From assembly GCA_049700315.1 (NCBI GenBank), contig JBNAVN010000003.1, positions 8,724 to 72,723 of the forward strand: a DNA stretch of 64,000 bases, in the 5' to 3' direction. The stretch comes from a bacterium (GTDB lineage: Bacteria > Hydrothermota > Tepidihabitantia > SM23-42 > JAOAFX01). The translations under genes and the position numbers were made by a program. The notes beneath the pieces are model-generated. The model made no database searches, was not told the DNA's origin, and saw only the letters and a program-made list of their open reading frames with translations. This document shows, piece by piece, positions 8,722 through 41,138 of the stretch (position 1 is its first letter; each line of letters begins with the position of its first letter).

Positions 8722-8919
8722 GTGATCACCAGAGAAACGAAGGTTGAGAATATTCTCAGAGAATTTCCCGAGAAGATACCTATCTTTGTACAAATGGGTC
8801 TACCCTGCTTTGTCTGCGGTGAACGGTTCTGGGGCACAATTGAAGAATTGTGTCAGAGATATGATATTGAACCAGAAACATTATCAAAAGAATTGAACAG
8901 AATCAATAAAGGGGTGTGA
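8722..8919 (+). CDS. DUF1858-type small redox/disulfide domain protein (hybrid-cluster-protein-associated domain family)
   Basis: 65 aa with GLPCFVCG...ETLEELC core typical of DUF1858. GTG start 5 nt after a TATAAT. Confidence 0.5.
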   Translation: MITRETKVENILREFPEKIPIFVQMGLPCFVCGERFWGTIEELCQRYDIEPETLSKELNRINKGV

Positions 8920-15588: not shown

Positions 15589-15596
15589 TTTGTGAG

Positions 15597-16442: not shown

Positions 16443-16457
16443 CAGTCAATAAATATG

Positions 16458-24931: not shown

Positions 24932-24959
24932 TTGACAAAAGTAAAAAATGCTTTATAAT
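24932..24959 (+). promoter_or_regulatory. Sigma70-type promoter, TTGACA-N16-TATAAT, 5 nt upstream of the thrS ATG (leaderless arrangement)
   Basis: TTGACA at 24932 and TATAAT at 24954, read directly. ATG at 24965. Confidence 0.45.
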
Positions 24960-24964
24960 TGACT

Positions 24965-26863
24965 ATGTTGAAGATTAAGCTTAATGGCAGCATAATGGAA
25001 GTCCAGGCAGGTAAGAAGATTGCGGATTTAATAACGGATAAGGATTATATTGCGGCTCGGATAAATGGAGAATTGAAAGACCTGAATATACCCATCACCG
25101 AGAACTGCGAAGTAGAATTGATCAAATCCAGTGACCCTGAAGGACAGCAAATCTTCTGGCATTCAACTTCTCATATAATGGCGATGGCAGTAAAGATCCT
25201 GTTCCCTGATGCGAAACTTGCCATAGGTCCTGCAATTGACCAGGGCTTTTACTATGATTTCGACCGTCCGAGTCCATTTTCCACTGAAGACCTTGCAAAA
25301 ATAGAAGAGAAAATGTCTGAGATAATCAAAGAAGATATACCATTTGAACGGATTGTAATGACCAAAGAGGCAGTGATTGAATTTTTTTCGCGCCGCAGTG
25401 AATATTACAAAGTGGAACTGGTCAAAGAAATAAATGATAAAGAAATAAGCCTTTATCGCAATGGAGAATTTGTTGACCTCTGCCGTGGCCCGCATATTCC
25501 AAGGACCGGACTTGTCAAGGCATTCAAACTTCTCAGCGTTGCTGGTGCTTACTGGCGCGGTGATTCAAGATTGCCTATGCTCTCAAGAATATATGGCATA
25601 TCGTTTACCTCAAGTGAACAATTGAAGAATTATCTACACAAACTTGAAGAAGCACAGAAAAGGGACCACCGCAAATTAGGAACTGAACTTGAATTATTTT
25701 CAATTTTTGATGAAGCGGGCGCAGGGTTGGTTTTCTGGCATCCAAAAGGTACGATTGTAAGAAGATTGATTGAAGAATACTGGATCAAACAACATCTGAA
25801 AAATGATTATGAATTGATTGCCACTCCCCACATTGCCCGAAGCAATCTATGGCAAACTTCTGGACACTATGATTTTTACCGGGATAAGATGTTCACTTTA
25901 CCGGTTGAAAATGAAGAATATGTCCTAAAACCTATGAATTGTCCGGGTCATATTCTCATATATAAATCAAAGGTAAGAAGTTATAAAGAACTGCCTATAA
26001 AATATGCAGAACTGGCAACCGTGTATAGAAACGAACTTTCGGGAACCCTGCATGGTTTGCTAAGGGTGAGAGGTTTTACCCAGGATGATGCCCATATCTT
26101 TTGCAGACCTGACCAGATTGAAGAAGAGATTGTAAAAATCCTCCAATTGACCCTGACGATCTTCAAAAAATTCGGCTTTGAAGATTTTCAGGTGAATTTA
26201 TCAGTGCGTGATCCAAAAAATAAAGAGAAGTTTATGGGTTCTGATGAAGAATGGCAAAGGGCAGAGAATGGTTTGATATCTGCATTAAAGAAAGTGAAAT
26301 TGCAATACAAAGTTCAAATAGGAGAGGCAGTATTTTATGGTCCCAAGATTGATATCAATATCCTTGATGCACTGGGTCGTGCATGGCAGGCAACTACGGT
26401 CCAGTTTGATTTCAATCTGCCCAAGCGATTCAGCATTGAATATATGGATGCAAAAGGACAGCACAAAGAGGTTGTGGTTATCCATCGTGCTTTGTACGGT
26501 TCTTTGGAGCGGTTCATAGGAACCCTGATTGAACACTATGCAGGTGCATTTCCTTTCTGGCTTGCGCCGGTCCAGGTGGTGGTAATGCCCATAACGGACA
26601 AGGAAAACACCTATGCCCGGGATGTGTATAATCGGGCTCTGAAACGTGGTTTAAGGGTAGAGTTAAATAGTAAATCTATGAAAATAAACTATCGTATCAG
26701 AGAAGCAGAGGTCAAAAAAATTCCGTACATCCTTGTTGTTGGTCCCAGAGAAGTTGAGAAAAAGACCATTTCTGTAAGAAAAAGGGGACGCGGTGACCTC
26801 GGCGAAATGAAATTGAAAGATTTCTTCAATCTTTGTGATTCAGAACAAGGGGGTGAAGATTAA
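24965..26863 (+). CDS. thrS: Threonine--tRNA ligase
   Basis: TGS N-terminal domain, class II aaRS motifs. Zinc ligands in the catalytic core (CPGH...HRALYGS). About 630 aa. Confidence 0.9.
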   Translation: MLKIKLNGSIMEVQAGKKIADLITDKDYIAARINGELKDLNIPITENCEVELIKSSDPEGQQIFWHSTSHIMAMAVKILFPDAKLAIGPAIDQGFYYDFDRPSPFSTEDLAKIEEKMSEIIKEDIPFERIVMTKEAVIEFFSRRSEYYKVELVKEINDKEISLYRNGEFVDLCRGPHIPRTGLVKAFKLLSVAGAYWRGDSRLPMLSRIYGISFTSSEQLKNYLHKLEEAQKRDHRKLGTELELFSIFDEAGAGLVFWHPKGTIVRRLIEEYWIKQHLKNDYELIATPHIARSNLWQTSGHYDFYRDKMFTLPVENEEYVLKPMNCPGHILIYKSKVRSYKELPIKYAELATVYRNELSGTLHGLLRVRGFTQDDAHIFCRPDQIEEEIVKILQLTLTIFKKFGFEDFQVNLSVRDPKNKEKFMGSDEEWQRAENGLISALKKVKLQYKVQIGEAVFYGPKIDINILDALGRAWQATTVQFDFNLPKRFSIEYMDAKGQHKEVVVIHRALYGSLERFIGTLIEHYAGAFPFWLAPVQVVVMPITDKENTYARDVYNRALKRGLRVELNSKSMKINYRIREAEVKKIPYILVVGPREVEKKTISVRKRGRGDLGEMKLKDFFNLCDSEQGGED

Positions 26864-27389
26864 AAATCTACCAAGGGTCAATACCGAAATAAGAACCGAA
26901 AAAGTCAAACTGGTGGATGAAAATCGTCAGTATATGGGTATCTTTGATACTTCAATTGCCCTGCGCATTGCCCGCGAACGCGGACTTGATCTTGTGGAGG
27001 TTGCACCTGATGCCCAACCACCAGTTTGTCGTTTAATGAATTTCGGACGATATGTTTATGAAAAGAAAAGACAGGAACGGGAATCAAGGAAACATCAACA
27101 TCAGACTCAGGTCCGAGAAATGCGTATGTCAATGAAGATATCAGACCATGATTATCAGGTGAAAATGAACAAGATAAAGGAATTTTTGGAGAGAGGCGAC
27201 CGTGTAAAAGTGAAACTCAGACTGCGCGGCAGAGAGTTAATCCATGCACATTTAGGTATGAATCTGGTTGAAAGGGTGATCAATGATCTCCAGGCTATGG
27301 CCAAGGAAGAAGCACCGCCAAAACAGGAAGAACAGACTATTTCAGTGACTTTGATTCCACAAAGAACAAGAAAGGAGAACAAGGAATGA
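26835..27389 (+). CDS. infC: Translation initiation factor IF-3
   Basis: IRxxEVRL-like N-terminus (EIRTEKVKLVD), conserved C-domain. Start ambiguous: GTG 26835, GTG 26853, or ATT 26859 preceded by GGGGG. Confidence 0.8.
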   Translation: MIQNKGVKIKNLPRVNTEIRTEKVKLVDENRQYMGIFDTSIALRIARERGLDLVEVAPDAQPPVCRLMNFGRYVYEKKRQERESRKHQHQTQVREMRMSMKISDHDYQVKMNKIKEFLERGDRVKVKLRLRGRELIHAHLGMNLVERVINDLQAMAKEEAPPKQEEQTISVTLIPQRTRKENKE

Positions 27390-27574
27390 GTAAACTGAAA
27401 ACCAAGAGAGGCTGGCTAAAACGGGTCAAGATAAAAAAGAATGGTAAGATTCTGCGCTGGAAATCAGGGAAAAGGCATCTTTTAACAGGAAAATCAAGAA
27501 AACGCAAGAGGAGGCTTTCAAAACTAACCCCGGTGTCCAAGGCAGATCTCAAAAGATATAAGGACTTTAGATAG
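27386..27574 (+). CDS. rpmI: 50S ribosomal protein L35
   Basis: MSKLKTKRG...RHLLTGKS signature. 62 aa. Overlaps infC stop (ATGA). Confidence 0.85.
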   Translation: MSKLKTKRGWLKRVKIKKNGKILRWKSGKRHLLTGKSRKRKRRLSKLTPVSKADLKRYKDFR

Positions 27575-27579
27575 ATTGT

Positions 27580-27672
27580 TCTGTCGCAACCAACCTTGAA
27601 TTTTGCACAAGGAACAATCCTGTTGCACCTGGTGTACAGTTTTGCGCCAAGATTGCAAGGTTCGGTTGCTAC
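27580..27672 (+). promoter_or_regulatory. Structured spacer element between rpmI and rplT (long-range stem GCAACCAACCTTG / CAAGGTTCGGTTGC with internal repeats)
   Basis: Complementary segments at 27586-27600 and 27657-27671. Repeated TTGCA(C)AAGG. CACCTGGTG palindrome. Confidence 0.3.
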
Positions 27673-27674
27673 AG

Positions 27675-27703
27675 CCTTGACAGAATTTGTGTTATGGTTA
27701 TAA
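27675..27703 (+). promoter_or_regulatory. Sigma70-type promoter, TTGACA-N16-TATAAT, for rplT-pheST
   Basis: ccTTGACAgaatttgtgttatggtTATAATctc, read directly. Confidence 0.45.
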
Positions 27704-27774
27704 TCTCTCGGAATGCCCGAAAACTGAAATTTCAGGCAATCCAGAAAAAGAATTTAAAGAAAGGAGCATGACAG

Positions 27775-28143
27775 ATGCCAAGAACAAAGAATGCACCATA
27801 TACGAGAAAACGTCGAAAAAAATGGCTTAAGGCAGCAAAAGGATATTGGGGAGCAAAGCACCGCCTTTATAAGACTGCGAGAATACAGGTAATGAAGGCA
27901 TGGCTCTCTGCTTATCGAGAACGAAAACGGAAAAAAAGGGTTTTCAGGGCGTTATGGATCACAAGGATAAATGCAGCCTTAAGGGAAAAAGGATTAAAGT
28001 ATTCTGAATTTATTAATTCTCTGAAGAAGAACAACATAGAGATTGATCGCAAAACCCTGGCAATGCTCGCTTATGAGCATCCTGAGGAATTCAATTCCCT
28101 GGTTGAAGCCTGTAAGGCAATTAAGGAACAGCCAAAGGCATAG
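27775..28143 (+). CDS. rplT: 50S ribosomal protein L20
   Basis: KGYWGAKHRLYKTA...RRERKRKKR...WITRINAA signature. SD AAAGGAG upstream. Confidence 0.9.
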   Translation: MPRTKNAPYTRKRRKKWLKAAKGYWGAKHRLYKTARIQVMKAWLSAYRERKRKKRVFRALWITRINAALREKGLKYSEFINSLKKNNIEIDRKTLAMLAYEHPEEFNSLVEACKAIKEQPKA

Positions 28144-28150
28144 ACAGAAA

Positions 28151-29152
28151 ATGGAAAAAAAATTAGAAGAAATTAAGGCAACGATTGAAAACGAACTGCA
28201 TAATATTAAGGATACAAAGACCCTTGAAGCATTCAGGATCAGGTATCTGGGTAGAAAAGGTATGTTAAATGAATTGATCAAAGAACTTGTGAATCTGCCC
28301 GTTGAGGAAAGAAGAAAAATAGGCAGCGAGATAAATGTCCTGAAGTCAAGATTGAATGAAATCCTGAGTACACGACAAACAGAATTTGCCCAAACCACAG
28401 TCCCGAGAATTGATCCCTTATTACCCGGTAGAATGGGTTATGTTGGACATCGTCACCCCATTTCATTAATCCTTGATGAAATAGAATCATTTTTCGAAAA
28501 CCTTGGCTTTGTTGTTGCCTCAGGTCCAGAGATTGAATATGACTGGTACAACTTTGAAGCATTGAACATACCCAAAGACCATCCAGCACGAGACAATTTT
28601 TCAAGTCTTTATATCTCAGATGAACTTTTGTTGAGAAGCCATACCTCACCGGTCCAGATAAGGGTAATGGAAAAGACAAAACCACCGATCAAAATCATCT
28701 GTCCGGGAAGATGCTACAGATTTGATCCATTTGATCCAAGTCATTCACCGGTATTCCATCAAGTTGAGGTTTTGTATGTTGATAAAGGTGTATCCTTTGG
28801 CGAATTGAAATGGCTACTCGGTGAGTTCGTGAGACATATTTTTGGTCCCAAAACGAAATACGAACTCAGACCGAGTTTCTTTCCATTCACCGAACCTTCT
28901 GGTGAACTCGCGATAAGTTGTTCAGTTTGTCAGGGTGAAGGCTGTCCGGTTTGTGGTAATACCGGTTGGCTGGAAATGTTAGGATGTGGAATGGTCCATC
29001 CCCAGGTCTTAAAGAATGTGAAGATTTCACCAAAGGAATATTCTGGTTATGCCCTGGGTATGGGCATTGAACGAGTCGCCATTATTAAATATCTGATAGA
29101 TGATATACGGGTTTTTTATAATAATGATATGAGATTCTTGGAACAGTTTTAA
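28151..29152 (+). CDS. pheS: Phenylalanine--tRNA ligase alpha subunit
   Basis: Class II motifs (FRxE-like CYRFD, GLGIERVAII). ATG at 28151 (MEKKLEEIKA) chosen over the tracked 5-prime extension that overlaps rplT. Confidence 0.9.
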   Translation: MEKKLEEIKATIENELHNIKDTKTLEAFRIRYLGRKGMLNELIKELVNLPVEERRKIGSEINVLKSRLNEILSTRQTEFAQTTVPRIDPLLPGRMGYVGHRHPISLILDEIESFFENLGFVVASGPEIEYDWYNFEALNIPKDHPARDNFSSLYISDELLLRSHTSPVQIRVMEKTKPPIKIICPGRCYRFDPFDPSHSPVFHQVEVLYVDKGVSFGELKWLLGEFVRHIFGPKTKYELRPSFFPFTEPSGELAISCSVCQGEGCPVCGNTGWLEMLGCGMVHPQVLKNVKISPKEYSGYALGMGIERVAIIKYLIDDIRVFYNNDMRFLEQF

Positions 29153-29199
29153 GAATATGATGGCAAAGGTAGAAAACGAAAGTGTAAATAGGAGAAGGA

Positions 29200-31521
29200 A
29201 TGTTAGTTTCTGTTAAGTGGCTTGAGGAATTGCTCAATTCAAAACTTGATGTGAAAGCACTGGAGAATGCCGCGAACAATCTTGGAATGGAGATTGTCCA
29301 GCAGTACAATTATTGTCCCGGAGATATTATCATTGGTAAAATTCTTAAAATCACACCCCACCCTACTTTAAAGAATTTACAAATACTGGATATCAAAACT
29401 CATGCACACCATCAGATTGTTACATCTGCAACCAACATCAAGTTGAATGATCTTGTGTTTGTAGTACCCGCAGGAAAGAAATTTAAAGACCAGACTGTTG
29501 GAGAAAGAAACTTTGATGGTATTAAATCAAATGGCATGCTTGTGAGCGACGAAGAAATGGGCATTGCAGAAAAATCAACGGGTGTCATTGTCCTGGATAA
29601 GGGAATGGAAGGAAAAGATTTTGTGGATGTGTATGACAATATCGTTCTGGATGTAAAAGTCAGTGCGAATCGTCCAGACCTTTTGTCGGTAACCGGACTG
29701 GCACGGGAATTCAGTTTAGGACTGGGGATAAAATTTGTCTGTAAAGAAAAAATCCCTGACCAGATAAATCACATTGACAAATCCTGGGTAAATATCAAAG
29801 ACCTGGACGGTTGTCCAAGATATACGGCAAGAATATTTGAAGATGTAAGAATTGCGGAGTCTCCATTTTCTATAAAATGGCGCCTTTCCTGTATGGGAAT
29901 GAAAGGTATAAACAATGTGGTTGACATCACAAACATCAATATGTTACTCTTTGGTCAACCTTTGCATCCATTTGACCTTGATTTATTGAAAGAGCCCATA
30001 GTAATCAGACGGGCGCAGAAAAATGAACAGTTTGTAACCCTTGAAGGAACCGTCTTCAAGTTAGATGAAAACGATCTTGTAATTGCTGATAAAAACGGAC
30101 CGGTTGCCCTTGCAGGCATAATCGGTGCCCGGTGTTCCCAGATCACGCACTCAACCCGACGCATATTGTTAGAAAGTGCTTTTTTCAATCCCCAGCGCGT
30201 TGCCCACACAAGAAGACGTCTGGGTATTCAGACCGAGGCATCTATGAGGTTTGAACGCGGTGCAGATTTATCAATGGTTGATGAAGTATCAAGAATAACC
30301 AGTGAAGATTTTAAAACCTGTGCAGGTGCAAAGGAATCAAGATTCATTGGTACCGGGAAAAAAGCAAAACCAAGGATAATACCATTCTCCCGAAATCATT
30401 TGAATACCATACTTTCTCTAAAATTAAGCAGTGATGAAATAAAGAACATATTGAATAAGTCAGAAATCAAAATCACCGGTAAAAATCAACTCAAGGCGAA
30501 AATCCCTCATTATCGTTATGACCTCCAGATTGCCGAAGACCTATATGAAGAGGTAGCACGGATATATGGTTATATGAATATTCCTGATGTCCTGCCTGGA
30601 CGCTGGGCTGTTACTAAAATCTATGATAAGAGCAGAACCTTCGTTAAATTCCTGAAATCATATATGATTGGACTTGGTTTCAGTGAAACCTATAATCTCT
30701 CACTTGTGTCCAGTCAAAGGTTGAGCGAACTTGGATACAGTGAGTTTGTCAAATTAAAGAATCCGTTGAATGAACGTTTTGATGCATTAAGACCCACTCT
30801 GTTTTTAGGATTACTTGATGCAGTCCAATACAATCTCTCAAAGGGAAATTACTCACTAAAACTCTTTGAGGTTGGAAACATACTCCTGGGTGGTGAACCA
30901 TTCCAGGAAAAAAGGCTTGGTGTCATTATGGGTGGTGAACGTTACCCGAATTTCTGGGAAAAGAACGATCAAATTCTAAACTATTATGATGCCAAAGGTG
31001 CAGTAGAGATGATCTTTGAAGCATTGAGAATAAGGGAAATTCGCTTTGTTCACCATAGACAATCAGGATTCAGTCAGGTAACAAGAATCCTGTTTTCTGA
31101 CAAAGACCTCGGATACCTGGGCATCATTGCCCCGGAATTCTGTGAGCGTGAATTCTTCTTTTTTGAATTATCAATTGACCGGATACTTTCGCTTGTTAAT
31201 GAACCATTTTATAATCCGCCACCAAAATTTCCTGCGAATATTCGTGACCTTGCCTTCTTGTTTGATGAGACCACTGAAGTGCCTCAGGTAAAAGATCTTA
31301 TCGCACGCGTTGCTGGTCCAATCCTTGACAAAATTATACTCTTTGATTATTATAAAGGTAAGAATCTGCCCTCAAACAAAAAGAATTTGGGGTTCAGACT
31401 ATTTTTCAAGGCGCCGGACCGGACCTTAACCGATGAAGAAGTTGATCGGTTTGTTAAAAAAATAGTTGATGAGGTCTCAGGTAATTTTGGGGCTATTTTG
31501 AGAACAAAGGAGACAAATTGA
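29200..31521 (+). CDS. pheT: Phenylalanine--tRNA ligase beta subunit
   Basis: N-terminal tRNA-binding (MLVSVKWLEE), B3/B4, B5 and C-terminal FDX-ACB-like domains. 773 aa. Confidence 0.9.
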   Translation: MLVSVKWLEELLNSKLDVKALENAANNLGMEIVQQYNYCPGDIIIGKILKITPHPTLKNLQILDIKTHAHHQIVTSATNIKLNDLVFVVPAGKKFKDQTVGERNFDGIKSNGMLVSDEEMGIAEKSTGVIVLDKGMEGKDFVDVYDNIVLDVKVSANRPDLLSVTGLAREFSLGLGIKFVCKEKIPDQINHIDKSWVNIKDLDGCPRYTARIFEDVRIAESPFSIKWRLSCMGMKGINNVVDITNINMLLFGQPLHPFDLDLLKEPIVIRRAQKNEQFVTLEGTVFKLDENDLVIADKNGPVALAGIIGARCSQITHSTRRILLESAFFNPQRVAHTRRRLGIQTEASMRFERGADLSMVDEVSRITSEDFKTCAGAKESRFIGTGKKAKPRIIPFSRNHLNTILSLKLSSDEIKNILNKSEIKITGKNQLKAKIPHYRYDLQIAEDLYEEVARIYGYMNIPDVLPGRWAVTKIYDKSRTFVKFLKSYMIGLGFSETYNLSLVSSQRLSELGYSEFVKLKNPLNERFDALRPTLFLGLLDAVQYNLSKGNYSLKLFEVGNILLGGEPFQEKRLGVIMGGERYPNFWEKNDQILNYYDAKGAVEMIFEALRIREIRFVHHRQSGFSQVTRILFSDKDLGYLGIIAPEFCEREFFFFELSIDRILSLVNEPFYNPPPKFPANIRDLAFLFDETTEVPQVKDLIARVAGPILDKIILFDYYKGKNLPSNKKNLGFRLFFKAPDRTLTDEEVDRFVKKIVDEVSGNFGAILRTKETN

Positions 31522-31740: not shown

Positions 31741-32037
31741 TTGAAAAAAAGTCAAGCCAACGAAGTTGTGGTCAATATCTTCGGAAATGACTATCGGATA
31801 ACCTCCGAAGATATGGACGAGGAACGAATTAAGAAAATAGCCGAAATTGTGGATAAGAAGATGCGGGATATTCACCGTGAATTTCCCCTGCCATCAACCA
31901 CCAAGATTGCCGTGCTCGCCTGTTTGAATTTGGTTGATGAGTATCTGCAGAAAGAAGAGCATCTTAGCAAGAAAAATTTGGAATTGGAACAAAGAATTAA
32001 TACGTTGATCCTCAAGATTGATGAGGTAATTACTTAA
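31741..32037 (+). CDS. zapA: Cell division protein ZapA
   Basis: VNIFGNDYRI N-terminal motif and C-terminal coiled coil. 98 aa. pheT-zapA linkage is common. Confidence 0.65.
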   Translation: MKKSQANEVVVNIFGNDYRITSEDMDEERIKKIAEIVDKKMRDIHREFPLPSTTKIAVLACLNLVDEYLQKEEHLSKKNLELEQRINTLILKIDEVIT

Positions 32038-32204
32038 TTCGTTCCCTGCGATGCTCGTGATGGGCATTAAGTCTTGAGCCAACACCCATCGTTTGGGAGC
32101 CAAGTTCGGCTACAGGTTTTCCTGTAGTTGACAGGCGCCCACTTTAACCCTGGGTTCAAAGACTTTTTCCCACACGGCATACGCGGGGAACTTTCTAAGA
32201 TTTT

Positions 32205-33801: not shown

Positions 33802-33816
33802 GAAGAACATTGGCTT

Positions 33817-33842
33817 GACTTTTGATTTTTTTTTATTATAAT
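33817..33842 (+). promoter_or_regulatory. Sigma70-type promoter TTGACT-N16/17-TATAAT, 5 nt upstream of the tdh ATG
   Basis: ggcTTGACTtttgatttttttttatTATAATtgcccATG, read directly. Confidence 0.4.
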
Positions 33843-33847
33843 TGCCC

Positions 33848-34885
33848 ATGGCAATGATGAAAGCAGTAGTTAAAACAAAATCTGAACCCGGCGCAGAATT
33901 AATTGATGTACCAATCCCGACACCAGGGCCTGACCAGGTTCTGGTAAAAGTTTTAGCAACTTCAATCTGTGGAACTGATCTCCATATCTTCCAATGGAAT
34001 GAATGGGCACAAAAAAGAATAAAAAGAGTTCCTCAGATTATGGGGCATGAATTATGCGGACAGGTTGTTGAAGTTGGCGCCAATGTCCCGCATATTAAAA
34101 AAGACAGCATTATCTCTGCGGAAACCCATATTGCCTGTGGATATTGTTTTCTCTGTCGGAATGGACTTGGACATATCTGCGAGAATGTAAAGATATTTGG
34201 TGTTGATGTTGATGGGGTATTTGCTGAATATGCAGTTATTCCAGCAACCAATGCCTGGGTCATTGAGGATAAAATACCCAATGATTATGTTTCGGTGATG
34301 GAACCACTGGGCAATGCAATCCACACTGTTCTCGCCGGTGATATTGCTGGCAACACGGTGTTGGTCACTGGTTGCGGCCCGATAGGACTTATGTCTATTG
34401 CGGTCTGCAAAATCTGCGGTGCAACCAAAATAATCGCCACAGAAATAAATGAATTCAGATTGCAAATGGCAAAAAAGATAGGAGCAGACATTGTTTTGAA
34501 CCCAAAGAAAAACAAAATCATTGATTCAATAATGCAAAATACCAATGGTAAAGGCGTAGATGTAGTACTTGAAATGTCGGGCAATCAAACCGCAATTACT
34601 GAAGGATTGAAAAGTCTAAGACCTGGTGGCAGGTATTCTATCTTGGGAATTCCAGACCGACCCCTCAAAATAGACCTTGCAGAAATTGTTTTCAAGTACT
34701 TTACAATTCAGGGAATAAATGGCCGGCTAATGTTTTCAACCTGGTATAAGAGCACAAGATTCCTCGCATCTGGCAGACTTGACCTTGATCCTGTCATCAC
34801 CCATCGGTTGCGCCTGGAAGAATTTCAGAAGGGAATGGAATTGATGGAAAGCGGTAATTGTGGTAAAATTCTTTTATATCCATAA
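33848..34885 (+). CDS. tdh: L-threonine 3-dehydrogenase (zinc-dependent MDR family)
   Basis: Near-collinear similarity to classical TDH: ICGTDLHI, GHELCGQVVEVG, CxxCxxC structural zinc (CGYCFLCRNGLGHIC), TGCGPIGL NAD motif. Confidence 0.85.
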   Translation: MAMMKAVVKTKSEPGAELIDVPIPTPGPDQVLVKVLATSICGTDLHIFQWNEWAQKRIKRVPQIMGHELCGQVVEVGANVPHIKKDSIISAETHIACGYCFLCRNGLGHICENVKIFGVDVDGVFAEYAVIPATNAWVIEDKIPNDYVSVMEPLGNAIHTVLAGDIAGNTVLVTGCGPIGLMSIAVCKICGATKIIATEINEFRLQMAKKIGADIVLNPKKNKIIDSIMQNTNGKGVDVVLEMSGNQTAITEGLKSLRPGGRYSILGIPDRPLKIDLAEIVFKYFTIQGINGRLMFSTWYKSTRFLASGRLDLDPVITHRLRLEEFQKGMELMESGNCGKILLYP

Positions 34886-34891
34886 TCACTG

Positions 34892-35242
34892 ATGATAAAG
34901 GGCATCGGCATTGACCTGATTGAAATCAGCCGATTTTCAAAAGTTTCTGATGATTTTCTAAAACAGGTATTCAATTCCCAGGAAATAGAAAATACAAGAA
35001 ACAACCCCCTGTTATCAAGTATCAAATTCTGTTTGAAAGAATCAGTTTTGAAGGCGCTTGGTAAGGGATTGTATTTTGGTTTTTTATGGCATAAGATAAA
35101 ATTAGAAAATGATGAAGTAAATATTTCAGAATCGCTCAGGCAAAGATTGAGTGAAAAAAATATTATACATACCTGTGCAGGCAATTCAAAGAAGTATGCC
35201 TGTGCAATTGCAATAATTGAAGATAAGCAGGAGGTTTTTTGA
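34892..35242 (+). CDS. acpS: Holo-[acyl-carrier-protein] synthase (4-phosphopantetheinyl transferase, AcpS type)
   Basis: GIGIDLIEISRF and KESVLKALGKGL motifs of AcpS-type PPTases. 116 aa. Confidence 0.7.
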   Translation: MIKGIGIDLIEISRFSKVSDDFLKQVFNSQEIENTRNNPLLSSIKFCLKESVLKALGKGLYFGFLWHKIKLENDEVNISESLRQRLSEKNIIHTCAGNSKKYACAIAIIEDKQEVF

Positions 35243-36942
35243 TGTTTAACATTGGCTCATATGAAGAAAGGTACAAAAATTTTGATTGGAAACAGAGTGA
35301 AAAAGAATTGGATTATGGTAAAAACGGTAAATACAATATCGGATATTATTGCAGTGACCGTATCTGTGAATTGGGAATGAGCACTAAGATAGCCCTGGTA
35401 TGGCAGGGGTTCAGCGGTGAAGTGAAAAAGTATACCTATGATGACATTCGTATAAATAGCAACAAATTTGCCCATTTTTTGACTTCACTGGGAATAAAAC
35501 CTGGTGAACGCGTGTGCATCTTTATGGACCGCATCCCTGAACTATACATTTCTTTCATTGGCATTCTCAAGGCAGGATTTATAGTACAGCCGCTCTTCTC
35601 CGCATTTGGTGAAGAGGCATTATTCACGAGACTTGATGATGCAAAAACCACTGCCATAATAACGACCCGCAAACATTTATCAAAAGTGCGGAAAATCAAA
35701 TCACAACTACCTGAATTGAAATTCATCATCGTTTTACACAATGAAGGCAAGCCCCTTGAAGGGCGCGAGATTGAATTCAGTATGGATGCATACCAGCGAA
35801 TTGAAAAATTCAGTATCTACCCTGTGGATAGAGAAACACCTTCGGTACTACATTATACATCTGGTACTACAGGCAAACCAAAAGGTGCACTTCATGTTCA
35901 TTCCTCAATCATTGCCCAATATATCACTGCCAAATGGGTTCTTGATTTGAAACAGAACGACATTTACTGGTGTACAGCAGATCCCGGCTGGGTTACCGGA
36001 ACATCTTACGGCATAATTGGCCCCTGGTCAAACGGCATTACCCAGGTTGTATACGATATTGGGTTTAATACTGAAAAATGGTATGCCTTTATTGAAAAAC
36101 ACAAGGTAACCGTCTGGTATAGTGCCCCGACAGCAATCAGACTTCTGATGAAGGAAGGTGAAGAAGTTGTCAAAAAATTCAATTTAAAATCCTTACGCCA
36201 TCTGGTGAGCGTGGGTGAACCTTTAAATGCTGAGGCCGTTATCTGGTCCGAAAAGGCGTTTGGTTTACCGTTCCACGACTCATACTGGCAGACTGAAACT
36301 GGTTCCATTGTCATATCCAATTATCCGGGGATGAAGATAAAACCTGGTTCAATGGGGAAGGCATTTCCTGGTATTGTCGCAGTTGTTGTTGACCCGAAAA
36401 GATATGAACCAATAGATACCCCAGGCTCAATTGGATTGATCGCCTTAAAACCAGGCTGGCCATCAATGATGAGAACCTATTGGAACAACAAAGAAACCTA
36501 TAATAATAAATTCAAAAATGGCTGGTATATATGCGGTGACCGGGCTTACCTTGATAATGAAGGATATTTCTGGTTTATTGGTCGGGATGATGATGTAATA
36601 AATACTGCTGGTCATCTTGTTGGACCATTTGAGATTGAATCTGCCTTGCTTGAACACCCAGCAGTTGCTGAATCAGCCGCGGTAGGAAAACCTGACCAGG
36701 TCAATATGGAAGTAGTAAAGGCATTTGTAGCCCTGAAACCTGGTTACGAACCCAGTAATGACCTGGAACTTGATATAATGAATTTCATTAGAAAAAAACT
36801 ATCACCCCTGGCAATGCCCCAGGAGATTGAATTTGTTGATTCGCTCCCGAAAACCCGCAGTGGTAAGATAATGCGGCGGTTATTAAGGGCAAAAGAATGG
36901 GGTGAAGAAATTGGTGACCTCTCCACACTGGAGAATGATTAA
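35239..36942 (+). CDS. AMP-dependent synthetase/ligase (acyl-CoA/acyl-carrier-protein synthetase, ACS-like family)
   Basis: YTSGTTGKPKG AMP-binding motif, YWQTETG, GDRAY...GR.DD motifs. N-terminal region resembles acetyl/propionyl-CoA synthetases. Confidence 0.75.
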   Translation: MMFNIGSYEERYKNFDWKQSEKELDYGKNGKYNIGYYCSDRICELGMSTKIALVWQGFSGEVKKYTYDDIRINSNKFAHFLTSLGIKPGERVCIFMDRIPELYISFIGILKAGFIVQPLFSAFGEEALFTRLDDAKTTAIITTRKHLSKVRKIKSQLPELKFIIVLHNEGKPLEGREIEFSMDAYQRIEKFSIYPVDRETPSVLHYTSGTTGKPKGALHVHSSIIAQYITAKWVLDLKQNDIYWCTADPGWVTGTSYGIIGPWSNGITQVVYDIGFNTEKWYAFIEKHKVTVWYSAPTAIRLLMKEGEEVVKKFNLKSLRHLVSVGEPLNAEAVIWSEKAFGLPFHDSYWQTETGSIVISNYPGMKIKPGSMGKAFPGIVAVVVDPKRYEPIDTPGSIGLIALKPGWPSMMRTYWNNKETYNNKFKNGWYICGDRAYLDNEGYFWFIGRDDDVINTAGHLVGPFEIESALLEHPAVAESAAVGKPDQVNMEVVKAFVALKPGYEPSNDLELDIMNFIRKKLSPLAMPQEIEFVDSLPKTRSGKIMRRLLRAKEWGEEIGDLSTLEND

Positions 36943-36997
36943 CTATTCATCCTCACCTTTGTTCTCTCTTTTCGGATAGAGGATGGAAAGGAGAAAA

Positions 36998-37258
36998 ATG
37001 GCTGAAGATTTGAAAAAAATGATAATTGATTATGTGAAAAAAGAATATCTGGATGAAGATTCAGATCAGGAGATCACAGAGAATACCCCTTTGATCTCCA
37101 GTGGCATTGTTGATTCTTTTTCAATGGTTTCACTGAAGACTTTCTTAGAAAAAAAATTCAACATAAAAATTCCTGATGAAAAAGCAACAACCGATGCATT
37201 TGATAGCGTTAACAATATTATTAAATTGCTTGGCGAATTCGTAAAGCTTGATATCTGA
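36998..37258 (+). CDS. Phosphopantetheine-binding carrier protein (DltC/ACP-like)
   Basis: GIVDSFSMVSL motif with the conserved attachment Ser. 86 aa from the ATG at 36998, which follows AAGGAG. Confidence 0.6.
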   Translation: MAEDLKKMIIDYVKKEYLDEDSDQEITENTPLISSGIVDSFSMVSLKTFLEKKFNIKIPDEKATTDAFDSVNNIIKLLGEFVKLDI

Positions 37259-37276
37259 AAATGAAAAGGAGGCAGT

Positions 37277-38524
37277 ATGGCATTTGATACAAAAACCAGA
37301 GAATTGTTTGCCAGCGAATTGAAAGGAATAAGAGAAAAAGGCTTATTTAAGGAGGAAAGGTATATTACTTCCCCCCAGTCAGCATATATAAAAGTAGAAT
37401 ACCCTGCTGGTTCACCACCAAAGGAAGTTATAAATTTCTGTGCAAATAATTATCTTGGATTGTCAAGCCATCCTGAAGTTGTTAAGGCAGCACACGAAGG
37501 ACTTGAGAATAGAGGTTATGGAATGTCTTCAGTTCGGTTCATCTGTGGAACCCAGGATATCCATCGGGAGCTTGAACGAAAACTTACGGAATTTTTAGGC
37601 ACTGAAGATACGGTTCTATTCCCATCCTGTATGGATGCAAACGCGGGTGTATTTGATGTAGTACTGGATAAAGAAGATGCAATGATTGCAGATCGACTTG
37701 TTCATGCGTCGATTGTTGATGGTATGAAACTGTGCAAAGCCCAGACCTTCAATTACAAACACCTGAATATGGCACACCTGGAAGAGAAACTACAGGAAAC
37801 TCAGAATTGCAGATTCCGAATGATCATTACGGACGGTGTTTTTTCAATGGATGGTGATATTGCACCCCTTGATAAAATCTGTGAGTTGGCAGAAAAATAT
37901 AATGCAATGGTGATGGTTGATGACTCACATGCTACAGGATTTCTTGGTAAGAATGGCAAGGGAACTCATGAGCATTGTGGTGTAGTTGGCAAGATTGATA
38001 TCATTACCACAACCCTTGGCAAAGCAATGGGTGGCGCATCAGGCGGGTGTGTAAGTGGTCGTAAAGAAATTGTTGAGATGTGCCGTCAGCGTGCCCGGCC
38101 TTATCTATTTTCAAATACAATTCCCCCGGTTGTAGTTGCGGCAGCAAACAAGGTGGTTGACCTTATTGCCAGTACAACTGTACTAAGGGACAAATTAGAA
38201 GAGAATACAAAATATTTCAGGGCAAAGATCAAAGAGGCGGGGCTTGATATCAGAGAAGGTGTACATCCAATAGTCCCAATAATGCTTTATAATGCAAAAC
38301 TTGCCCAAGATATGGCACGAGATTTGTATAACGAAGGTATCTATGTCATTGGTTTCTTCTATCCAGTTGTTCCGCAAGGGCAGGCGAGAATAAGAGTTCA
38401 GATTTCGGCAGTCCATGAAAAAGAACACCTTGATAAAGCGATTGAGGCATTTAAGAAGATTGGCGAGAAATATAAAATTCTGGGAAAGAAAAAAGATGAG
38501 ATAATTGCGATGTACGGATTATAG
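37277..38524 (+). CDS. kbl: 2-amino-3-ketobutyrate CoA ligase (glycine C-acetyltransferase)
   Basis: Strong collinear similarity to classical KBL: GLFKEERYITS, VINFCANNYLGL, SSVRFICGTQD, PLP-lysine region TLGKAMGGASGG, GIYVIGFFYPVVPQGQARIRVQ. Confidence 0.85.
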   Translation: MAFDTKTRELFASELKGIREKGLFKEERYITSPQSAYIKVEYPAGSPPKEVINFCANNYLGLSSHPEVVKAAHEGLENRGYGMSSVRFICGTQDIHRELERKLTEFLGTEDTVLFPSCMDANAGVFDVVLDKEDAMIADRLVHASIVDGMKLCKAQTFNYKHLNMAHLEEKLQETQNCRFRMIITDGVFSMDGDIAPLDKICELAEKYNAMVMVDDSHATGFLGKNGKGTHEHCGVVGKIDIITTTLGKAMGGASGGCVSGRKEIVEMCRQRARPYLFSNTIPPVVVAAANKVVDLIASTTVLRDKLEENTKYFRAKIKEAGLDIREGVHPIVPIMLYNAKLAQDMARDLYNEGIYVIGFFYPVVPQGQARIRVQISAVHEKEHLDKAIEAFKKIGEKYKILGKKKDEIIAMYGL

Positions 38525-38710
38525 AAAATGCCTAAAATAATGAGTTCCAAAAATCCAAATCCCAATTACCAGGTAAATTTCAAATTTCCATTACCAGACA
38601 GTCTGAGGTCTGCGGAAAATAGTAACTTGGATGTTAATTATTGCTTAGAATTTAGACATTGAAGATTAAATATTGTTTGTGATTTGGGGCTTGGGATTTG
38701 AGATTTAATC

Positions 38711-39838
38711 ATGAATACTGCTGATGTCATAGTAATTGGTGGTGGTATTATAGGCTGTGCCACAGGTTATTATCTCACAAAAAAAGGTTTAAAGGTATTT
38801 CTTTTTGAAAAAGACTATCTTACTGCAGGGTCTACAGGCAGATGTATTGGCGGAATAAGACAACAATTCTCAACAGAATTGAGTATCAAGGTAGCCATGG
38901 AATCAGTAAAAAAATTCAAAGCAATGAACGATGAATTAGAAACAGATGTGGAATTTGAACAAGATGGCTATTTGTTTCTGGCACACGCTCAGGAAAAAGA
39001 AAAGATCTATAAGAATCTGATTGCATTACAGAAAAAGATGGGCCTGGATGTGGAATATGTTGATGTTCCAACCATAGAAAAAATTGTGCCCGGTATCAAT
39101 ACTGAAGGATTACTTGGTGGTGCCTACTGCCCAAGCGATGCCCAGGCAAATCCATTCTTAGTGGTTGATGCCTATGCAAAAAAGATAAAGCAGAAAGGGA
39201 AAATTTTTACCCATTGTGAAGTGAAAAGTATCAATTTCCAGAAAAACAAGGTTATTTCTATAACTGCAGTCAATAACGAGACCTATTATTCACCAATTGT
39301 AGTAAATGCTACTGGACCATTTATAAGAGAATTTACAAAATCTCTTGGCATTGATATTCCGGTATTTGCTGAGCGTCATGAATCACTCATTACCGAACCA
39401 ATTGAAATATTTTTCAAACCAATGGTAGTTGACTATCGTCCTGATGGTTGCTATTTTCACCAGAAATCAAAACAGGGTAGTATCATTGGATGTTTTACAC
39501 CAGTTCCCAATGTGCCGGGTAATGATATCCGTTCTTCATTTGAATTCATAAAAGAAATGGGAAGAAGGATGGCAAGGTTGATTCCAAAACTTGAGAACAT
39601 TAAAATAATCAGACAGTGGGCGGGCAGTTATGAAATGACTCCGGATGGCAACCCAATATTAGACAGGACTGATATTGAAGGACTATGGATAATCAGCGGT
39701 TTTTGTGGTCATGGTTTTATGCTTGGTCCAGAAATTGGTTTTGTAGCATCTGAATATATCACAAATGGAAAACCACCCTATGATATCAGTGAATTTACCC
39801 TGAAACGAGATTTTTCTCGCCAGGAAGTGATGAAATAA
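38711..39838 (+). CDS. FAD-dependent oxidoreductase (DAO family; glycine/D-amino-acid/sarcosine oxidase-like)
   Basis: VIVIGGGIIGCATGYYL dinucleotide-binding motif. C-terminal GFCGHGFMLGP motif typical of the DAO family. 375 aa. Confidence 0.7.
   Translation: MNTADVIVIGGGIIGCATGYYLTKKGLKVFLFEKDYLTAGSTGRCIGGIRQQFSTELSIKVAMESVKKFKAMNDELETDVEFEQDGYLFLAHAQEKEKIYKNLIALQKKMGLDVEYVDVPTIEKIVPGINTEGLLGGAYCPSDAQANPFLVVDAYAKKIKQKGKIFTHCEVKSINFQKNKVISITAVNNETYYSPIVVNATGPFIREFTKSLGIDIPVFAERHESLITEPIEIFFKPMVVDYRPDGCYFHQKSKQGSIIGCFTPVPNVPGNDIRSSFEFIKEMGRRMARLIPKLENIKIIRQWAGSYEMTPDGNPILDRTDIEGLWIISGFCGHGFMLGPEIGFVASEYITNGKPPYDISEFTLKRDFSRQEVMK

Positions 39839-40011: not shown

Positions 40012-41138
<1,127 letters not shown>

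What the first reader, a model, noticed from the sequence alone, without database searches (positions are those of the whole stretch)
33848..39838. acpS, an AMP ligase and a DltC-like carrier protein inserted between tdh and kbl, followed by an FAD amine oxidase
tdh and kbl are normally adjacent partners (Thr to 2-amino-3-ketobutyrate to Gly plus acetyl-CoA). Here three genes sit between them: an AcpS-type PPTase, a 567-aa ACS-like adenylating enzyme and an 86-aa phosphopantetheine carrier protein (GIVDSFSMVSL). A DAO-family FAD oxidoreductase follows kbl. KBL is an alpha-oxoamine synthase and runs reversibly, and carrier-protein-dependent AOS chemistry exists in sphingolipid and prodiginine pathways. 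The layout therefore suggests either a carrier-protein-linked variant of threonine/glycine metabolism or a small aminoketone/aminolipid-type biosynthetic cassette. The KBL itself looks canonical, so simple catabolism with an unrelated inserted module is also possible.
Basis: partly seen in the sequence, partly recalled or inferred. Interest (0 to 1): 0.6.

Follow-up and report, generated by a model that had tools for sequence, protein, structure and literature searches.

The report
Carrier-protein-dependent threonine/glycine enzyme module
This is a widely conserved, uncharacterised gene module in which the threonine/glycine enzyme pair (Tdh plus a special Kbl paralog) appears to work with acetate loaded onto a dedicated small carrier protein rather than with coenzyme A; databases currently label its parts as ordinary housekeeping enzymes.

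Summary
All six genes are present at the stated coordinates, apparently as one operon (tdh, AcpS-like PPTase, ACS-like ligase, 86-aa carrier, Kbl-like synthase) followed by a DAO gene. This is not a local insertion. The carrier occurs in at least 580 species-level genomes (WOR-3, Ignavibacteriota, Zixibacteria, Aminicenantes, Calditrichota and others). A Kbl-type gene follows it within 1 kb in 70 of 71 loci, and the ligase precedes it in 62 of 69. In the reverse test, 68 of 72 loci found through the Kbl alone carry the carrier.

The "Kbl" is a distinct paralog clade with a basic 12-residue C-terminal tail and N135V. In many genomes it sits beside a canonical Kbl and Tdh. The ligase passes the acetate-CoA ligase model and keeps an invariant acetate pocket. 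It also carries a clade marker (Arg526 to Leu) shared with sister ligases, four of seven of which sit next to DltC-like carriers.

Best reading: acetate is loaded onto a private carrier, condensed with glycine to 2-amino-3-ketobutyrate, and reduced to threonine. This would be a short-chain analogue of the AasR/AcpR/SPT sphingolipid module. The direction is inferred; ATP-yielding catabolism is not excluded. The DAO gene accompanies the module only in WOR-3. No literature on the module was found. I rate it a new variant of a known kind.

The parts
33815..33842 (+). Promoter-like site (TTGACT, 16-nt spacer, TATAAT; 11 of 12 matches) immediately upstream of tdh
   Evidence: Consensus scan. A pattern match only; function was not shown.
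33854..34885 (+). L-threonine 3-dehydrogenase (Zn-ADH family). The ORF opens at 33842, but the likely start is MKAVV at 33854.
   Evidence: TIGR00692 472 bits (cutoff 458) and NF003808 468 bits (cutoff 380). Catalytic Zn ligands C38/H63/E64 (E. coli numbering) are conserved, and the NAD-type acidic residue is present (IATE). It is 72-94% identical in other WOR-3 cassettes.
34892..35242 (+). AcpS-type 4'-phosphopantetheinyl transferase, presumed to prime the carrier
   Evidence: Pfam PF01648 48 bits (cutoff 25). NCBIfam AcpS equivalogs score below cutoff. It overlaps the ligase start by 4 bp. A homolog is present upstream of the ligase in 25 of 61 loci with enough flank.
35239..36942 (+). ACS-like adenylating ligase, proposed acetate:[carrier protein] ligase
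   Evidence: NF003313 796 bits (cutoff 729). Closest solved structure is PDB 9g79, a 572-aa acetyl-CoA synthetase, at about 50% identity. The acetate-pocket equivalents of S. enterica Acs V310/T311/V386/W414 are invariant in 58 cassette ligases. The A8 motif reads TAGHLVGP, with Leu at the Arg526 position. Sister GHL ligases lie next to DltC-like carriers.
36998..37258 (+). Dedicated 86-aa phosphopantetheine carrier protein (DltC-like; Ser in GIVDSFSMVSL)
   Evidence: Pfam PP-binding 22.8 bits (cutoff 20.8). More than 4200 homologs, 80-96% identical among the best 120, with 38 invariant columns across phyla. pI 4.45. 31% identical (E 3e-12) to the carrier of a Dlt-like MBOAT cluster.
37277..38524 (+). 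Kbl-paralog alpha-oxoamine synthase ('AOS1'), proposed carrier-dependent glycine C-acetyltransferase
   Evidence: TIGR01822 621 bits (cutoff 493). All PLP and catalytic residues are conserved, including K249 (E. coli K244), H143, D215, H218 and R373. It forms a distinct clade, 68-98% identical within AOS1 against 49-63% to AOS2 and E. coli Kbl. It has a conserved tail ILGKKK(D/E)EIIxxYG plus N135V, F112M and gains of Arg/His. It follows the carrier within 1 kb in 70 of 71 loci.
38711..39838 (+). DAO-family FAD oxidoreductase. A lineage-specific neighbour, not part of the conserved module.
   Evidence: Pfam DAO 220 bits. Best PDB match is 1y56_B, deposited as 'sarcosine oxidase' (220 bits); from memory this is the beta subunit of P. 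horikoshii L-proline dehydrogenase. It lies 186 bp from the Kbl-like gene. It is adjacent only in WOR-3 loci and in 1 of 80 loci found through AOS1.

Best explanation
This is a self-contained, carrier-protein-dependent version of the Tdh/Kbl threonine-glycine pathway. The AcpS-like transferase converts the 86-aa carrier to its holo form. The ACS-like ligase activates acetate with ATP and transfers the acetyl group to the carrier's phosphopantetheine thiol rather than to CoA. The Kbl paralog (AOS1) interconverts acetyl-S-carrier plus glycine with 2-amino-3-ketobutyrate plus holo-carrier. The Tdh-family dehydrogenase interconverts 2-amino-3-ketobutyrate and L-threonine.

The most likely net direction is biosynthetic: acetate + glycine + ATP + NAD(P)H gives threonine. 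A private, ATP-charged acetyl-carrier pool would push the otherwise cleavage-favoured Kbl reaction towards condensation. The logic matches the specialised acyl-ACP synthetase/ACP/serine palmitoyltransferase module of proteobacterial sphingolipid synthesis.

Shown here: gene content, conservation and linkage, clade distinctness, pocket and catalytic residues. Inferred: the carrier as acyl acceptor and donor, glycine as the amino acid, and above all the direction. The confidence given (0.5) is for the carrier-dependent Kbl/Tdh chemistry with the biosynthetic direction as the leading option. The carrier-dependent chemistry alone I put at about 0.65, and the biosynthetic direction specifically at about 0.35-0.4.
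For: Linkage.
- The carrier is found in at least 580 species genomes.
- AOS1 lies within 1 kb downstream in 70 of 71 loci, median gap 22 bp. The ligase lies within 600 bp upstream in 54 of 69 loci and further upstream in 8 more.
- Reciprocally, 67 of 72 loci found through AOS1 alone have the carrier immediately upstream, plus one with a divergent carrier 1.1 kb away. 42 of 45 have the ligase.
- No other gene family is conserved around the triad except the PPTase, Tdh-like ADHs and a second Kbl.

Ligase.
- The acetate pocket is invariant.
- Arg526 is replaced by Leu (GHL motif) in all cassette ligases, whereas S. enterica Acs, the 9g79 AcsA-type enzyme and the long ACS representatives keep Arg.
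- An NJ tree groups the cassette clade (bootstrap 100) with other GHL ligases.
- Of 7 GHL sisters examined, 4 are adjacent to small carriers, 3 of them in MBOAT/DltD/DltX-like clusters. An Arg-type control has no carrier.
- The window carrier is homologous to one of those Dlt-like carriers (31% identity).

AOS1.
- It has a full catalytic set but forms a distinct clade.
- Its signature includes gains of basic residues (A133R, L298R, E160H, and the KKK tail with pI 9.7), which would complement an acidic carrier of pI 4.45.

Threonine chemistry.
- Four different Tdh-family classes accompany the module in different phyla, all with catalytic Zn ligands.
- The Zixibacteria/Fermentibacteria class lacks the NAD-specifying acidic residue, which hints at NADPH and a reductive role.

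Precedent.
- AasR acylates only AcpR, and SPT prefers acyl-AcpR. The authors argue this diverts fatty acids from CoA-based catabolism to biosynthesis (PMC9386255).
Against: - No biochemical or expression data exist.
- The ligase passes the curated acetate-CoA ligase equivalog cutoff and keeps the basic residue equivalent to the CoA-contacting Arg584, so it may still use CoA.
- The deep nodes that join the cassette ligases to the carrier-associated GHL ligases have weak bootstrap support (24-40%). 3 of 7 GHL sisters have no visible carrier.
- AOS1 also passes the Kbl equivalog cutoff.
- Direction is not determined by sequence. In WOR-3 and Ignavibacteria the ADH has an NAD-type site.
- In Ignavibacteria a canonical Kbl lies directly downstream on the same strand, which would create a futile cycle if both ran at once.
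- About 5% of AOS1 genes lack a nearby carrier.
- N135V sits next to the PLP-stacking His and could change amino-acid specificity.
Confidence: 0.5

Rival explanations
1. Same enzymes and carrier, but the module runs catabolically and conserves energy. Tdh oxidises threonine. AOS1 cleaves 2-amino-3-ketobutyrate with holo-carrier to give glycine and acetyl-S-carrier. The ligase then runs in reverse (acetyl-S-carrier + AMP + PPi gives acetate + ATP).
For: The host lineages are anaerobes from sediment and groundwater metagenomes (record titles). Their being reported as peptide fermenters is my own knowledge and was not checked here. The WOR-3 and Ignavibacteria ADHs have NAD-type cofactor sites. 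A canonical catabolic Kbl and Tdh lie next to the module in many genomes. In WOR-3 an amino-acid-oxidising DAO flavoprotein follows. The three core proteins are unusually conserved, 70-80% identical across phyla, as central energy enzymes often are. Reverse operation of an AMP-forming ACS has been described for Syntrophus (my own knowledge, not checked here).
Against: The sister ligase-carrier pairs sit in MBOAT/Dlt-like acyl-transfer clusters, where the ligase must work in the activating direction. CoA would serve equally well for ATP synthesis, so a private carrier brings no evident benefit. The Zixibacteria/Fermentibacteria ADH class looks NADP-type.
Confidence: 0.2
2. The acetyl-carrier is condensed by AOS1 to make a small aminoketone or amino-alcohol metabolite rather than threonine. 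Examples are aminoacetone leading to 1-aminopropan-2-ol after decarboxylation, or a product from an amino acid other than glycine. The Tdh-like ADH would act as the ketoreductase.
For: AOS1 differs from all canonical Kbls at N135V, next to the PLP-stacking His, and at F112M in the SCFDAN loop. The cassette ADHs outside WOR-3 fall below the Tdh equivalog cutoffs (289-374 bits) and carry insertions or lack the structural Zn site. Most alpha-oxoamine synthases are decarboxylative (established knowledge of AONS, ALAS and SPT).
Against: AOS1 is 55-63% identical to canonical Kbl and scores as a Kbl equivalog. The carboxylate-binding Arg (E. coli R368) and N50 are invariant. The WOR-3 ADH passes both Tdh equivalog cutoffs. 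No tailoring, export or cobamide genes are conserved nearby, and there is no riboswitch.
Confidence: 0.13
3. Ordinary CoA-dependent enzymes. The ligase is a housekeeping acetyl-CoA synthetase and AOS1 a normal CoA-dependent Kbl. The carrier and PPTase serve an unrelated function and are merely co-located.
For: Both enzymes exceed the curated equivalog cutoffs for acetate-CoA ligase and glycine C-acetyltransferase. The Arg584-equivalent basic residue is kept. Public annotations call them exactly that.
Against: Carrier-AOS1 adjacency holds in 70 of 71 and 68 of 72 loci across many phyla, with gaps of about 20 bp. No other candidate partner for the carrier is conserved. AOS1 and the ligase are each distinct clades with their own signatures. 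Many genomes carry a separate canonical Kbl and Tdh beside the module.
Confidence: 0.1
4. A long-chain or dicarboxylate pathway: a sphingoid/aminolipid base (SPT-like) or biotin precursor (BioW/BioF-like) synthesis that uses the carrier.
For: The ligase + ACP + alpha-oxoamine synthase architecture matches the AasR/AcpR/SPT module (PMC9386255). Pimeloyl-ACP-dependent BioF is a further parallel (my own knowledge).
Against: The acetate-sized pocket, including Trp, is invariant in 58 ligases. The SPT models score 235-327 bits against cutoffs of 500-670, and bioF scores 376 against 426. No N-acyltransferase, reductase or bioA/D/B genes are conserved nearby.
Confidence: 0.03

Closest known systems
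Tdh-Kbl threonine degradation pair (E. coli kbl-tdh operon)
   Same: Same two enzyme families. The WOR-3 Tdh and AOS1 both pass the equivalog HMM cutoffs, and all catalytic residues are kept.
   Different: The E. coli enzymes are adjacent and CoA-dependent, with no carrier, ligase or PPTase. AOS1 is a separate clade, 54% identical to E. coli Kbl, with a 12-aa basic tail and N135V. It coexists with canonical Kbl and Tdh in many genomes.
AasR / AcpR / serine palmitoyltransferase module of proteobacterial sphingolipid synthesis (PMC9386255)
   Same: An ANL-family ligase that loads a dedicated small ACP rather than CoA, with an alpha-oxoamine synthase that uses the acyl-ACP, encoded together. The proposed rationale is the same: divert a free acid from the CoA pool into biosynthesis.
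   Different: There the ligase is a FadD-like long-chain enzyme, the amino acid is serine, and the product is 3-oxosphinganine. Here the ligase is ACS-type with an acetate pocket, the synthase is Kbl-type, and the partner dehydrogenase is Tdh-type. The hosts are FCB-group and Acidobacteriota lineages, not Proteobacteria. Nothing has been tested biochemically.
Dlt D-alanylation system (DltA-DltC-DltB-DltD-DltX) and the ACS-ligase Dlt-like clusters seen here
   Same: A DltC-like carrier (G-I/L-V/I-D-S-F/M motif) loaded by an adjacent adenylating ligase. The nearest relatives of the cassette ligase and carrier sit in MBOAT + DltD-like + DltX-like clusters.
   Different: [quoted passage not shown] The DltC models score below cutoff (30 bits against 68).
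AcsA-type acetyl-CoA synthetase (PDB 9g79, presumed B. subtilis AcsA; NCBIfam NF003313)
   Same: About 50% identity. The adenylation motifs, the catalytic Lys (PKTRSGK) and the acetate pocket are identical.
   Different: The A8 Arg (S. enterica R526) is Leu in every cassette ligase, and the gene is always linked to a carrier gene.
SxtA-type and other ACP-dependent alpha-oxoamine synthases of natural-product pathways (my own knowledge)
   Same: A short acyl-ACP is condensed with an amino acid by an AONS-like PLP domain.
   Different: Those are multidomain secondary-metabolite enzymes with narrow distribution. This module consists of discrete proteins, is very strongly conserved, and sits among housekeeping genes in hundreds of species.

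Membership tests
Glycine C-acetyltransferase / Kbl (TIGR01822, NF005394) | Score above the curated equivalog cutoff | tested here: met
   621 bits against 493, and 602 against 460.
Glycine C-acetyltransferase / Kbl (TIGR01822, NF005394) | PLP lysine and active-site residues (E. coli K244, H136, D210, H213, S185, T241, R368, N50) | tested here: met
   All are invariant in 61 AOS1 sequences.
Glycine C-acetyltransferase / Kbl (TIGR01822, NF005394) | Groups with canonical (E. coli-type) Kbl rather than forming a separate lineage | tested here: not met
   AOS1 sequences are 68-98% identical to each other, against 49-63% to AOS2 and E. coli Kbl. There are 20 clade-specific positions, including N135V (61 of 61 against 0 of 23), and a 12-aa tail absent from all canonical Kbls.
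Glycine C-acetyltransferase / Kbl (TIGR01822, NF005394) | CoA / acetyl-CoA as the thiol co-substrate | not testable with these tools
   Only context bears on this: the carrier gene is immediately upstream in 94-99% of loci.
Acetate-CoA ligase, AcsA type (NF003313) | Score above the curated equivalog cutoff | tested here: met
   796 bits against 729.
Acetate-CoA ligase, AcsA type (NF003313) | Acetate-sized acyl pocket (S. enterica Acs V310, T311, V386, W414) | tested here: met
   V, T, V and W are invariant in 58 cassette ligases.
Acetate-CoA ligase, AcsA type (NF003313) | A8-loop Arg (S. enterica R526), conserved in the characterised ACS sequences compared here | tested here: not met
   Leu in all cassette ligases. 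Arg in S. enterica Acs, the 9g79 AcsA-type enzyme, 8rpk and the long-ACS representatives.
Acetate-CoA ligase, AcsA type (NF003313) | CoA as acyl acceptor | not testable with these tools
   The Arg584-equivalent is kept, which is neutral. Sister GHL ligases are adjacent to carriers in 4 of 7 cases.
L-threonine 3-dehydrogenase (TIGR00692, NF003808) | Score above cutoff and catalytic Zn ligands present | tested here: met
   472 bits against 458, and 468 against 380. C38, H63 and E64 are conserved. Cassette ADHs of other phyla fall below cutoff at 271-374 bits.
Holo-ACP synthase AcpS | Pfam ACPS domain; NCBIfam equivalog cutoff | tested here: inconclusive
   Pfam 48 bits against 25 is met. TIGR00516 at 42 bits against 60, and the other equivalogs, are below cutoff.
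DltC D-alanyl carrier protein | Score above the DltC model cutoffs; partnered with DltA/DltB | tested here: not met
   NF003464 30 bits against 68; TIGR01688 23 bits against 52. No MBOAT is found in the 81 loci. The motif is similar, and the carrier is 31% identical to a Dlt-like cluster carrier.
AasR/AcpR/SPT specialised-ACP module | Co-encoded ANL ligase + dedicated ACP + alpha-oxoamine synthase | tested here: met
AasR/AcpR/SPT specialised-ACP module | The synthase is a serine palmitoyltransferase and the ligase a long-chain acyl-ACP synthetase | tested here: not met
   SPT models score 235-327 bits against cutoffs of 500-670. The ligase is ACS-type with an acetate pocket.
AasR/AcpR/SPT specialised-ACP module | The ligase acylates only its own ACP, and the synthase prefers acyl-ACP | not testable with these tools
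   Requires enzyme assays, as in PMC9386255.
BioF 8-amino-7-oxononanoate synthase | Score above cutoff; bioA/D/B neighbourhood | tested here: not met
   TIGR00858 376 bits against 426. No bio genes are found among the conserved neighbours.

The most novel reading that the evidence does not exclude
The module is a previously unrecognised, ATP-driven route that builds threonine (or a close beta-hydroxy-alpha-amino acid) from glycine and free acetate. A private acetyl-carrier-protein pool would reverse the Kbl/Tdh reactions. It would be an amino-acid counterpart of the rule 'CoA for breakdown, ACP for synthesis', widespread in uncultured FCB-group and Acidobacteriota anaerobes and hidden behind housekeeping annotations.
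Probability: 0.35. Interest if true: 0.8.

Novelty: new variant of a known kind. Interest (0 to 1): 0.62.

Why it matters
If the reading is right, thousands of database entries named 'acetate-CoA ligase', 'acyl carrier protein' and 'glycine C-acetyltransferase' in WOR-3, Ignavibacteriota, Zixibacteria, Aminicenantes and related lineages belong to one carrier-dependent pathway, and metabolic reconstructions of these organisms misassign them.

It would be the first carrier-protein-dependent Kbl and the first ACS-type enzyme that acetylates a carrier for a cytosolic C-C bond-forming step. It would also extend the AasR/AcpR/SPT principle from lipids to central amino-acid metabolism.

A natural, ATP-driven glycine-plus-acetate-to-threonine module would interest people who engineer reductive-glycine and serine-threonine cycles. 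The ATP-yielding catabolic alternative would be a new form of substrate-level phosphorylation. Both are directly testable with four small soluble proteins.

Tried and rejected
- Riboswitch or leader search (Rfam gathering thresholds) on the window and 10 diverse loci. Only tRNAs and a 6S RNA were found, nothing upstream of the module.
- Ten literature searches for Tdh/Kbl with ACP, acetyl-ACP, ACP-dependent oxoamine synthases, reverse threonine synthesis and Dlt-like ACS systems. None describes this module (one search failed on syntax). The NCBIfam best hit for the carrier, 'ACP for OlsHI', led nowhere, because the OlsH paper reports no ACP requirement.
- Mapping of the S. enterica Acs CoA-contact residues. 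The R191/R194 region does not align in the short AcsA family, and R584 is conserved, so this test is inconclusive.
- Overall identity does not separate the cassette ligase from AcsA-type enzymes (48-52% to both). Only the A8 motif, the tree topology (weak deep support) and genomic context do.
- L080 looked like a divergent variant (Kbl 44% identical) but is a frameshifted assembly of the same module.
- The AlphaFold2 model of AOS1 from a shallow alignment was poor (mean pLDDT 54), so no fold search was run. Only the C-terminal helices, including the tail (residues 406-413), were confident.
- A window aminotransferase next to an MFS/glycosyltransferase/LPLAT cluster (12682-17696, minus strand), which resembles genes upstream of the Eisenbacteria cassette, is an ordinary class I aminotransferase, not an oxoamine synthase.

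Full report
**Observation**

The window carries six co-directional genes on the + strand:
- tdh, ORF from 33842, likely start 33854, end 34885
- an AcpS-like PPTase, 34892-35242
- a 567-aa ACS-like ligase, 35239-36942, overlapping the PPTase by 4 bp
- a carrier protein whose conserved start is at 36998, giving 86 aa, end 37258
- a 415-aa Kbl-like enzyme, 37277-38524
- a DAO-family flavoprotein, 38711-39838, after a 186-bp gap

Tdh, the acetate-CoA ligase model (NF003313, 796 bits against 729) and the Kbl model (TIGR01822, 621 against 493) all score above their equivalog cutoffs. The PPTase and the carrier are recognised only at Pfam level. A strong promoter-like match lies just upstream of tdh. 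No riboswitch is present. The organism is a member of candidate division WOR-3; the closest locus, L005, has a carrier 98% identical.

**The arrangement is a conserved module, not an insertion**

The carrier has more than 4200 homologs, and the best 120 are 80-96% identical. These cover WOR-3, Ignavibacteriota, Bacteroidota and Chlorobiaceae-labelled MAGs, Zixibacteria, Aminicenantes/Acidobacteriota, Chrysiogenales, KSB1, Calditrichota, Fermentibacteria and Eisenbacteria.

Across 81 non-redundant loci:
- A Kbl-type gene follows the carrier within 1 kb in 70 of 71 loci, with a median gap of 22 bp.
- The ligase lies within 600 bp upstream in 54 of 69 loci and further upstream in 8 more.

All-against-all clustering of neighbours shows that only the ligase, carrier, Kbl-like gene, PPTase, a Tdh-family ADH and a second Kbl copy recur. 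Everything else is lineage-specific synteny.

I also ran the reciprocal test. Of 80 metagenome loci retrieved through the Kbl-like protein alone, 67 of 72 with upstream sequence have the carrier directly upstream. One more has a divergent carrier 1.1 kb away. 42 of 45 have the ligase. The DAO gene is adjacent only in WOR-3. Its best structural relative by sequence is PDB 1y56_B, which from memory is the beta subunit of P. horikoshii L-proline dehydrogenase. I do not count it as part of the module.

**The Kbl is a special paralog ('AOS1')**

Many loci have two Kbl genes in tandem. Both pass the Kbl equivalog cutoffs, but they separate cleanly:
- The carrier-linked copy (AOS1) is always 415 aa and 68-98% identical across phyla.
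- The second copy (AOS2) and E. coli Kbl are only 49-63% identical to AOS1.

AOS1 keeps every PLP and catalytic residue. It also has 20 clade-specific positions:
- N135V (E. coli numbering), next to the PLP-stacking His: V in 61 of 61 AOS1 sequences, N in 23 of 23 canonical ones
- F112M
- gains of basic residues: A133R, L298R, E160H
- a conserved 12-residue tail, ILGKKK(D/E)EIIxxYG, absent from all canonical Kbls

The tail is basic (pI 9.7) and the carrier is acidic (pI 4.45). This fits a docking surface, but that is an inference. An AlphaFold model was poor overall and was confident only for the C-terminal helices, including the tail.

**The dehydrogenases**

Four Tdh-family classes accompany the module:
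- the WOR-3 type, which passes the Tdh cutoffs
- a roughly 409-aa Ignavibacteria type with an insertion
- a roughly 370-aa Zixibacteria/Fermentibacteria type that lacks the structural-zinc cysteines
- canonical E. coli-like Tdh (66-70% identical to the E. coli enzyme), found next to AOS2

All four keep the catalytic zinc ligands. The recurrent pairing with Tdh relatives argues that the chemistry stays at the 2-amino-3-ketobutyrate/threonine level. The Zixibacteria/Fermentibacteria class lacks the acidic residue that specifies NAD, which hints at NADPH. The WOR-3 and Ignavibacteria classes look NAD-type.

**The ligase**

- It is about 50% identical to the AcsA-type acetyl-CoA synthetase of PDB 9g79.
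- It has all adenylation motifs.
- The four residues that shape the acetate pocket in S. enterica Acs (V310, T311, V386, W414) are invariant in 58 cassette ligases.

Acetate is therefore the predicted acid. That step rests on established Acs structure-function knowledge.

Every cassette ligase has Leu where S. enterica Acs, the 9g79 enzyme and other ACS sequences have Arg526 in the A8 loop: TAGHLVGP against SGHRLG or SGERVG. A search of 1.84 billion representative proteins gave nearest relatives at 45-52% identity. About a quarter of the ACS-like representatives share the GHL motif. In an NJ tree the cassette clade (bootstrap 100) falls among these, apart from the AcsA group, although the deep nodes are weak at 24-40%.

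Genomic context of seven GHL sisters:

| Context | Count |
|---|---|
| Next to a 77-82-aa carrier | 4 |
| of which, inside a cluster with an MBOAT, a DltD-like protein and a DltX-like peptide ending FxYxxF | 3 |
| Next to 2-oxoacid dehydrogenase E1 subunits | 2 |
| In a polysaccharide cluster with no visible carrier | 1 |

An Arg-type control has no carrier. The window carrier is 31% identical (E 3e-12) to one of the Dlt-like carriers. The ligase-carrier pair therefore shares ancestry with carrier-loading systems. That is my main reason for thinking the acetyl group goes to the carrier rather than to CoA. The Arg584-equivalent residue is retained, so CoA use is not excluded.

**Mechanism proposed**

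1. The PPTase primes the carrier.
2. The ligase makes acetyl-S-carrier from acetate and ATP.
3. AOS1 interconverts acetyl-S-carrier plus glycine with 2-amino-3-ketobutyrate plus holo-carrier.
4. The Tdh-type enzyme interconverts 2-amino-3-ketobutyrate and threonine.

I favour the biosynthetic direction at roughly 0.35-0.4 absolute, for three reasons:
- The sister ligases are clearly activating enzymes.
- In the cassette, AOS1 occupies the place that the acyl-consuming MBOAT has in the sister systems.
- A private carrier pool kept fully acetylated by ATP hydrolysis is a plausible way to drive the cleavage-favoured Kbl reaction backwards while the CoA-dependent Kbl/Tdh pair next door handles catabolism.

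The experimentally characterised AasR/AcpR/SPT module gives the precedent and the same rationale (PMC9386255).

Three other readings remain open:
- The catabolic direction, with ATP made by ligase reversal.
- A small aminoketone or amino-alcohol as the product.
- Ordinary CoA enzymes with an unrelated carrier. I consider this unlikely, given the two-way linkage statistics.

**Known or new**

None of the ten literature searches found this module. Public annotations call its parts acetate-CoA ligase, acyl carrier protein and glycine C-acetyltransferase. All members seen are from metagenome-assembled genomes. It works like the AasR/AcpR/SPT system and its ligase-carrier pair like the Dlt pair, but it fails the membership tests for those families. 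It is also a distinct clade within the Kbl and ACS families. I therefore rate it a new variant of a known kind, of moderately high interest. The function and direction are inferred, not shown.

Noticed in passing
window 32040-32193 (+): A 6S RNA (Rfam RF00013, 80 bits) lies between the zapA-like ORF (31741-32037) and rny. The longest rny ORF (start 32128) overlaps it, so the real rny start is probably near 32245 (MTVLIIAI...).
   Followed up: partly
window 40012-41138 (+), break near 40527-40551: The tgt gene (queuine tRNA-ribosyltransferase) is split into two overlapping ORFs by a frameshift at a run of nine A. tgt is also split in several other WOR-3 assemblies (L001-L003, L015, L020) but intact in L021. 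This could be an assembly error, a pseudogene or slippage.
   Followed up: partly
L088 129-4630; L097 2324-6653; L087 6001-11524: ACS-like 'GHL' ligases sit in Dlt-like clusters: a DltD-like protein, an MBOAT, a DltC-like carrier and a 38-43-aa peptide ending FxYxxF (DltX-like). This looks like an acetate or short-acyl version of the D-alanylation machinery. Several of these ligases have Phe in place of the pocket Trp.
   Followed up: partly
L093 1893-5109; L096 244-5457: Two other GHL-type ACS-like ligases are followed directly by the E1 alpha/beta subunits (and probably E2) of a 2-oxoacid/acetoin dehydrogenase complex. This raises the idea that the subfamily generally works with protein-bound thiol arms.
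   Followed up: no
window 8916-9773 (+): A single ORF combines a NUDIX hydrolase domain (aa 38-144) with an aspartate 1-decarboxylase (PanD) domain (aa 169-280).
   Followed up: no
window 24959-31521 (+): The cassette lies just downstream of what looks like the housekeeping cluster thrS-infC-rpmI-rplT-pheS-pheT-zapA-6S-rny. Only thrS was checked against Pfam; the other names are read from the ORF translations. Downstream lie what look like pilM/N/O/P/Q. Composition is uniform (GC 0.37-0.43), so there is no sign of recent horizontal insertion.
   Followed up: partly
window 12682-17696 (-); L004 964-4305 (-): An MFS transporter, a GT4 glycosyltransferase and an LpxL/HtrB-like acyltransferase occur together in the window, with dut and a class I aminotransferase interleaved. 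The same trio lies directly upstream of the cassette, divergently oriented, in the Eisenbacteria locus. The aminotransferase is not an oxoamine synthase, and I found no evidence of a functional link.
   Followed up: partly
L164 17-2445: In one metagenome contig a Zixibacteria-type Tdh-like ADH overlaps the start of AOS1 directly, with no carrier or ligase between them. Three further AOS1 genes (L167, L169, L175) have no carrier within 4 kb. A minority of genomes therefore separate the parts.
   Followed up: no
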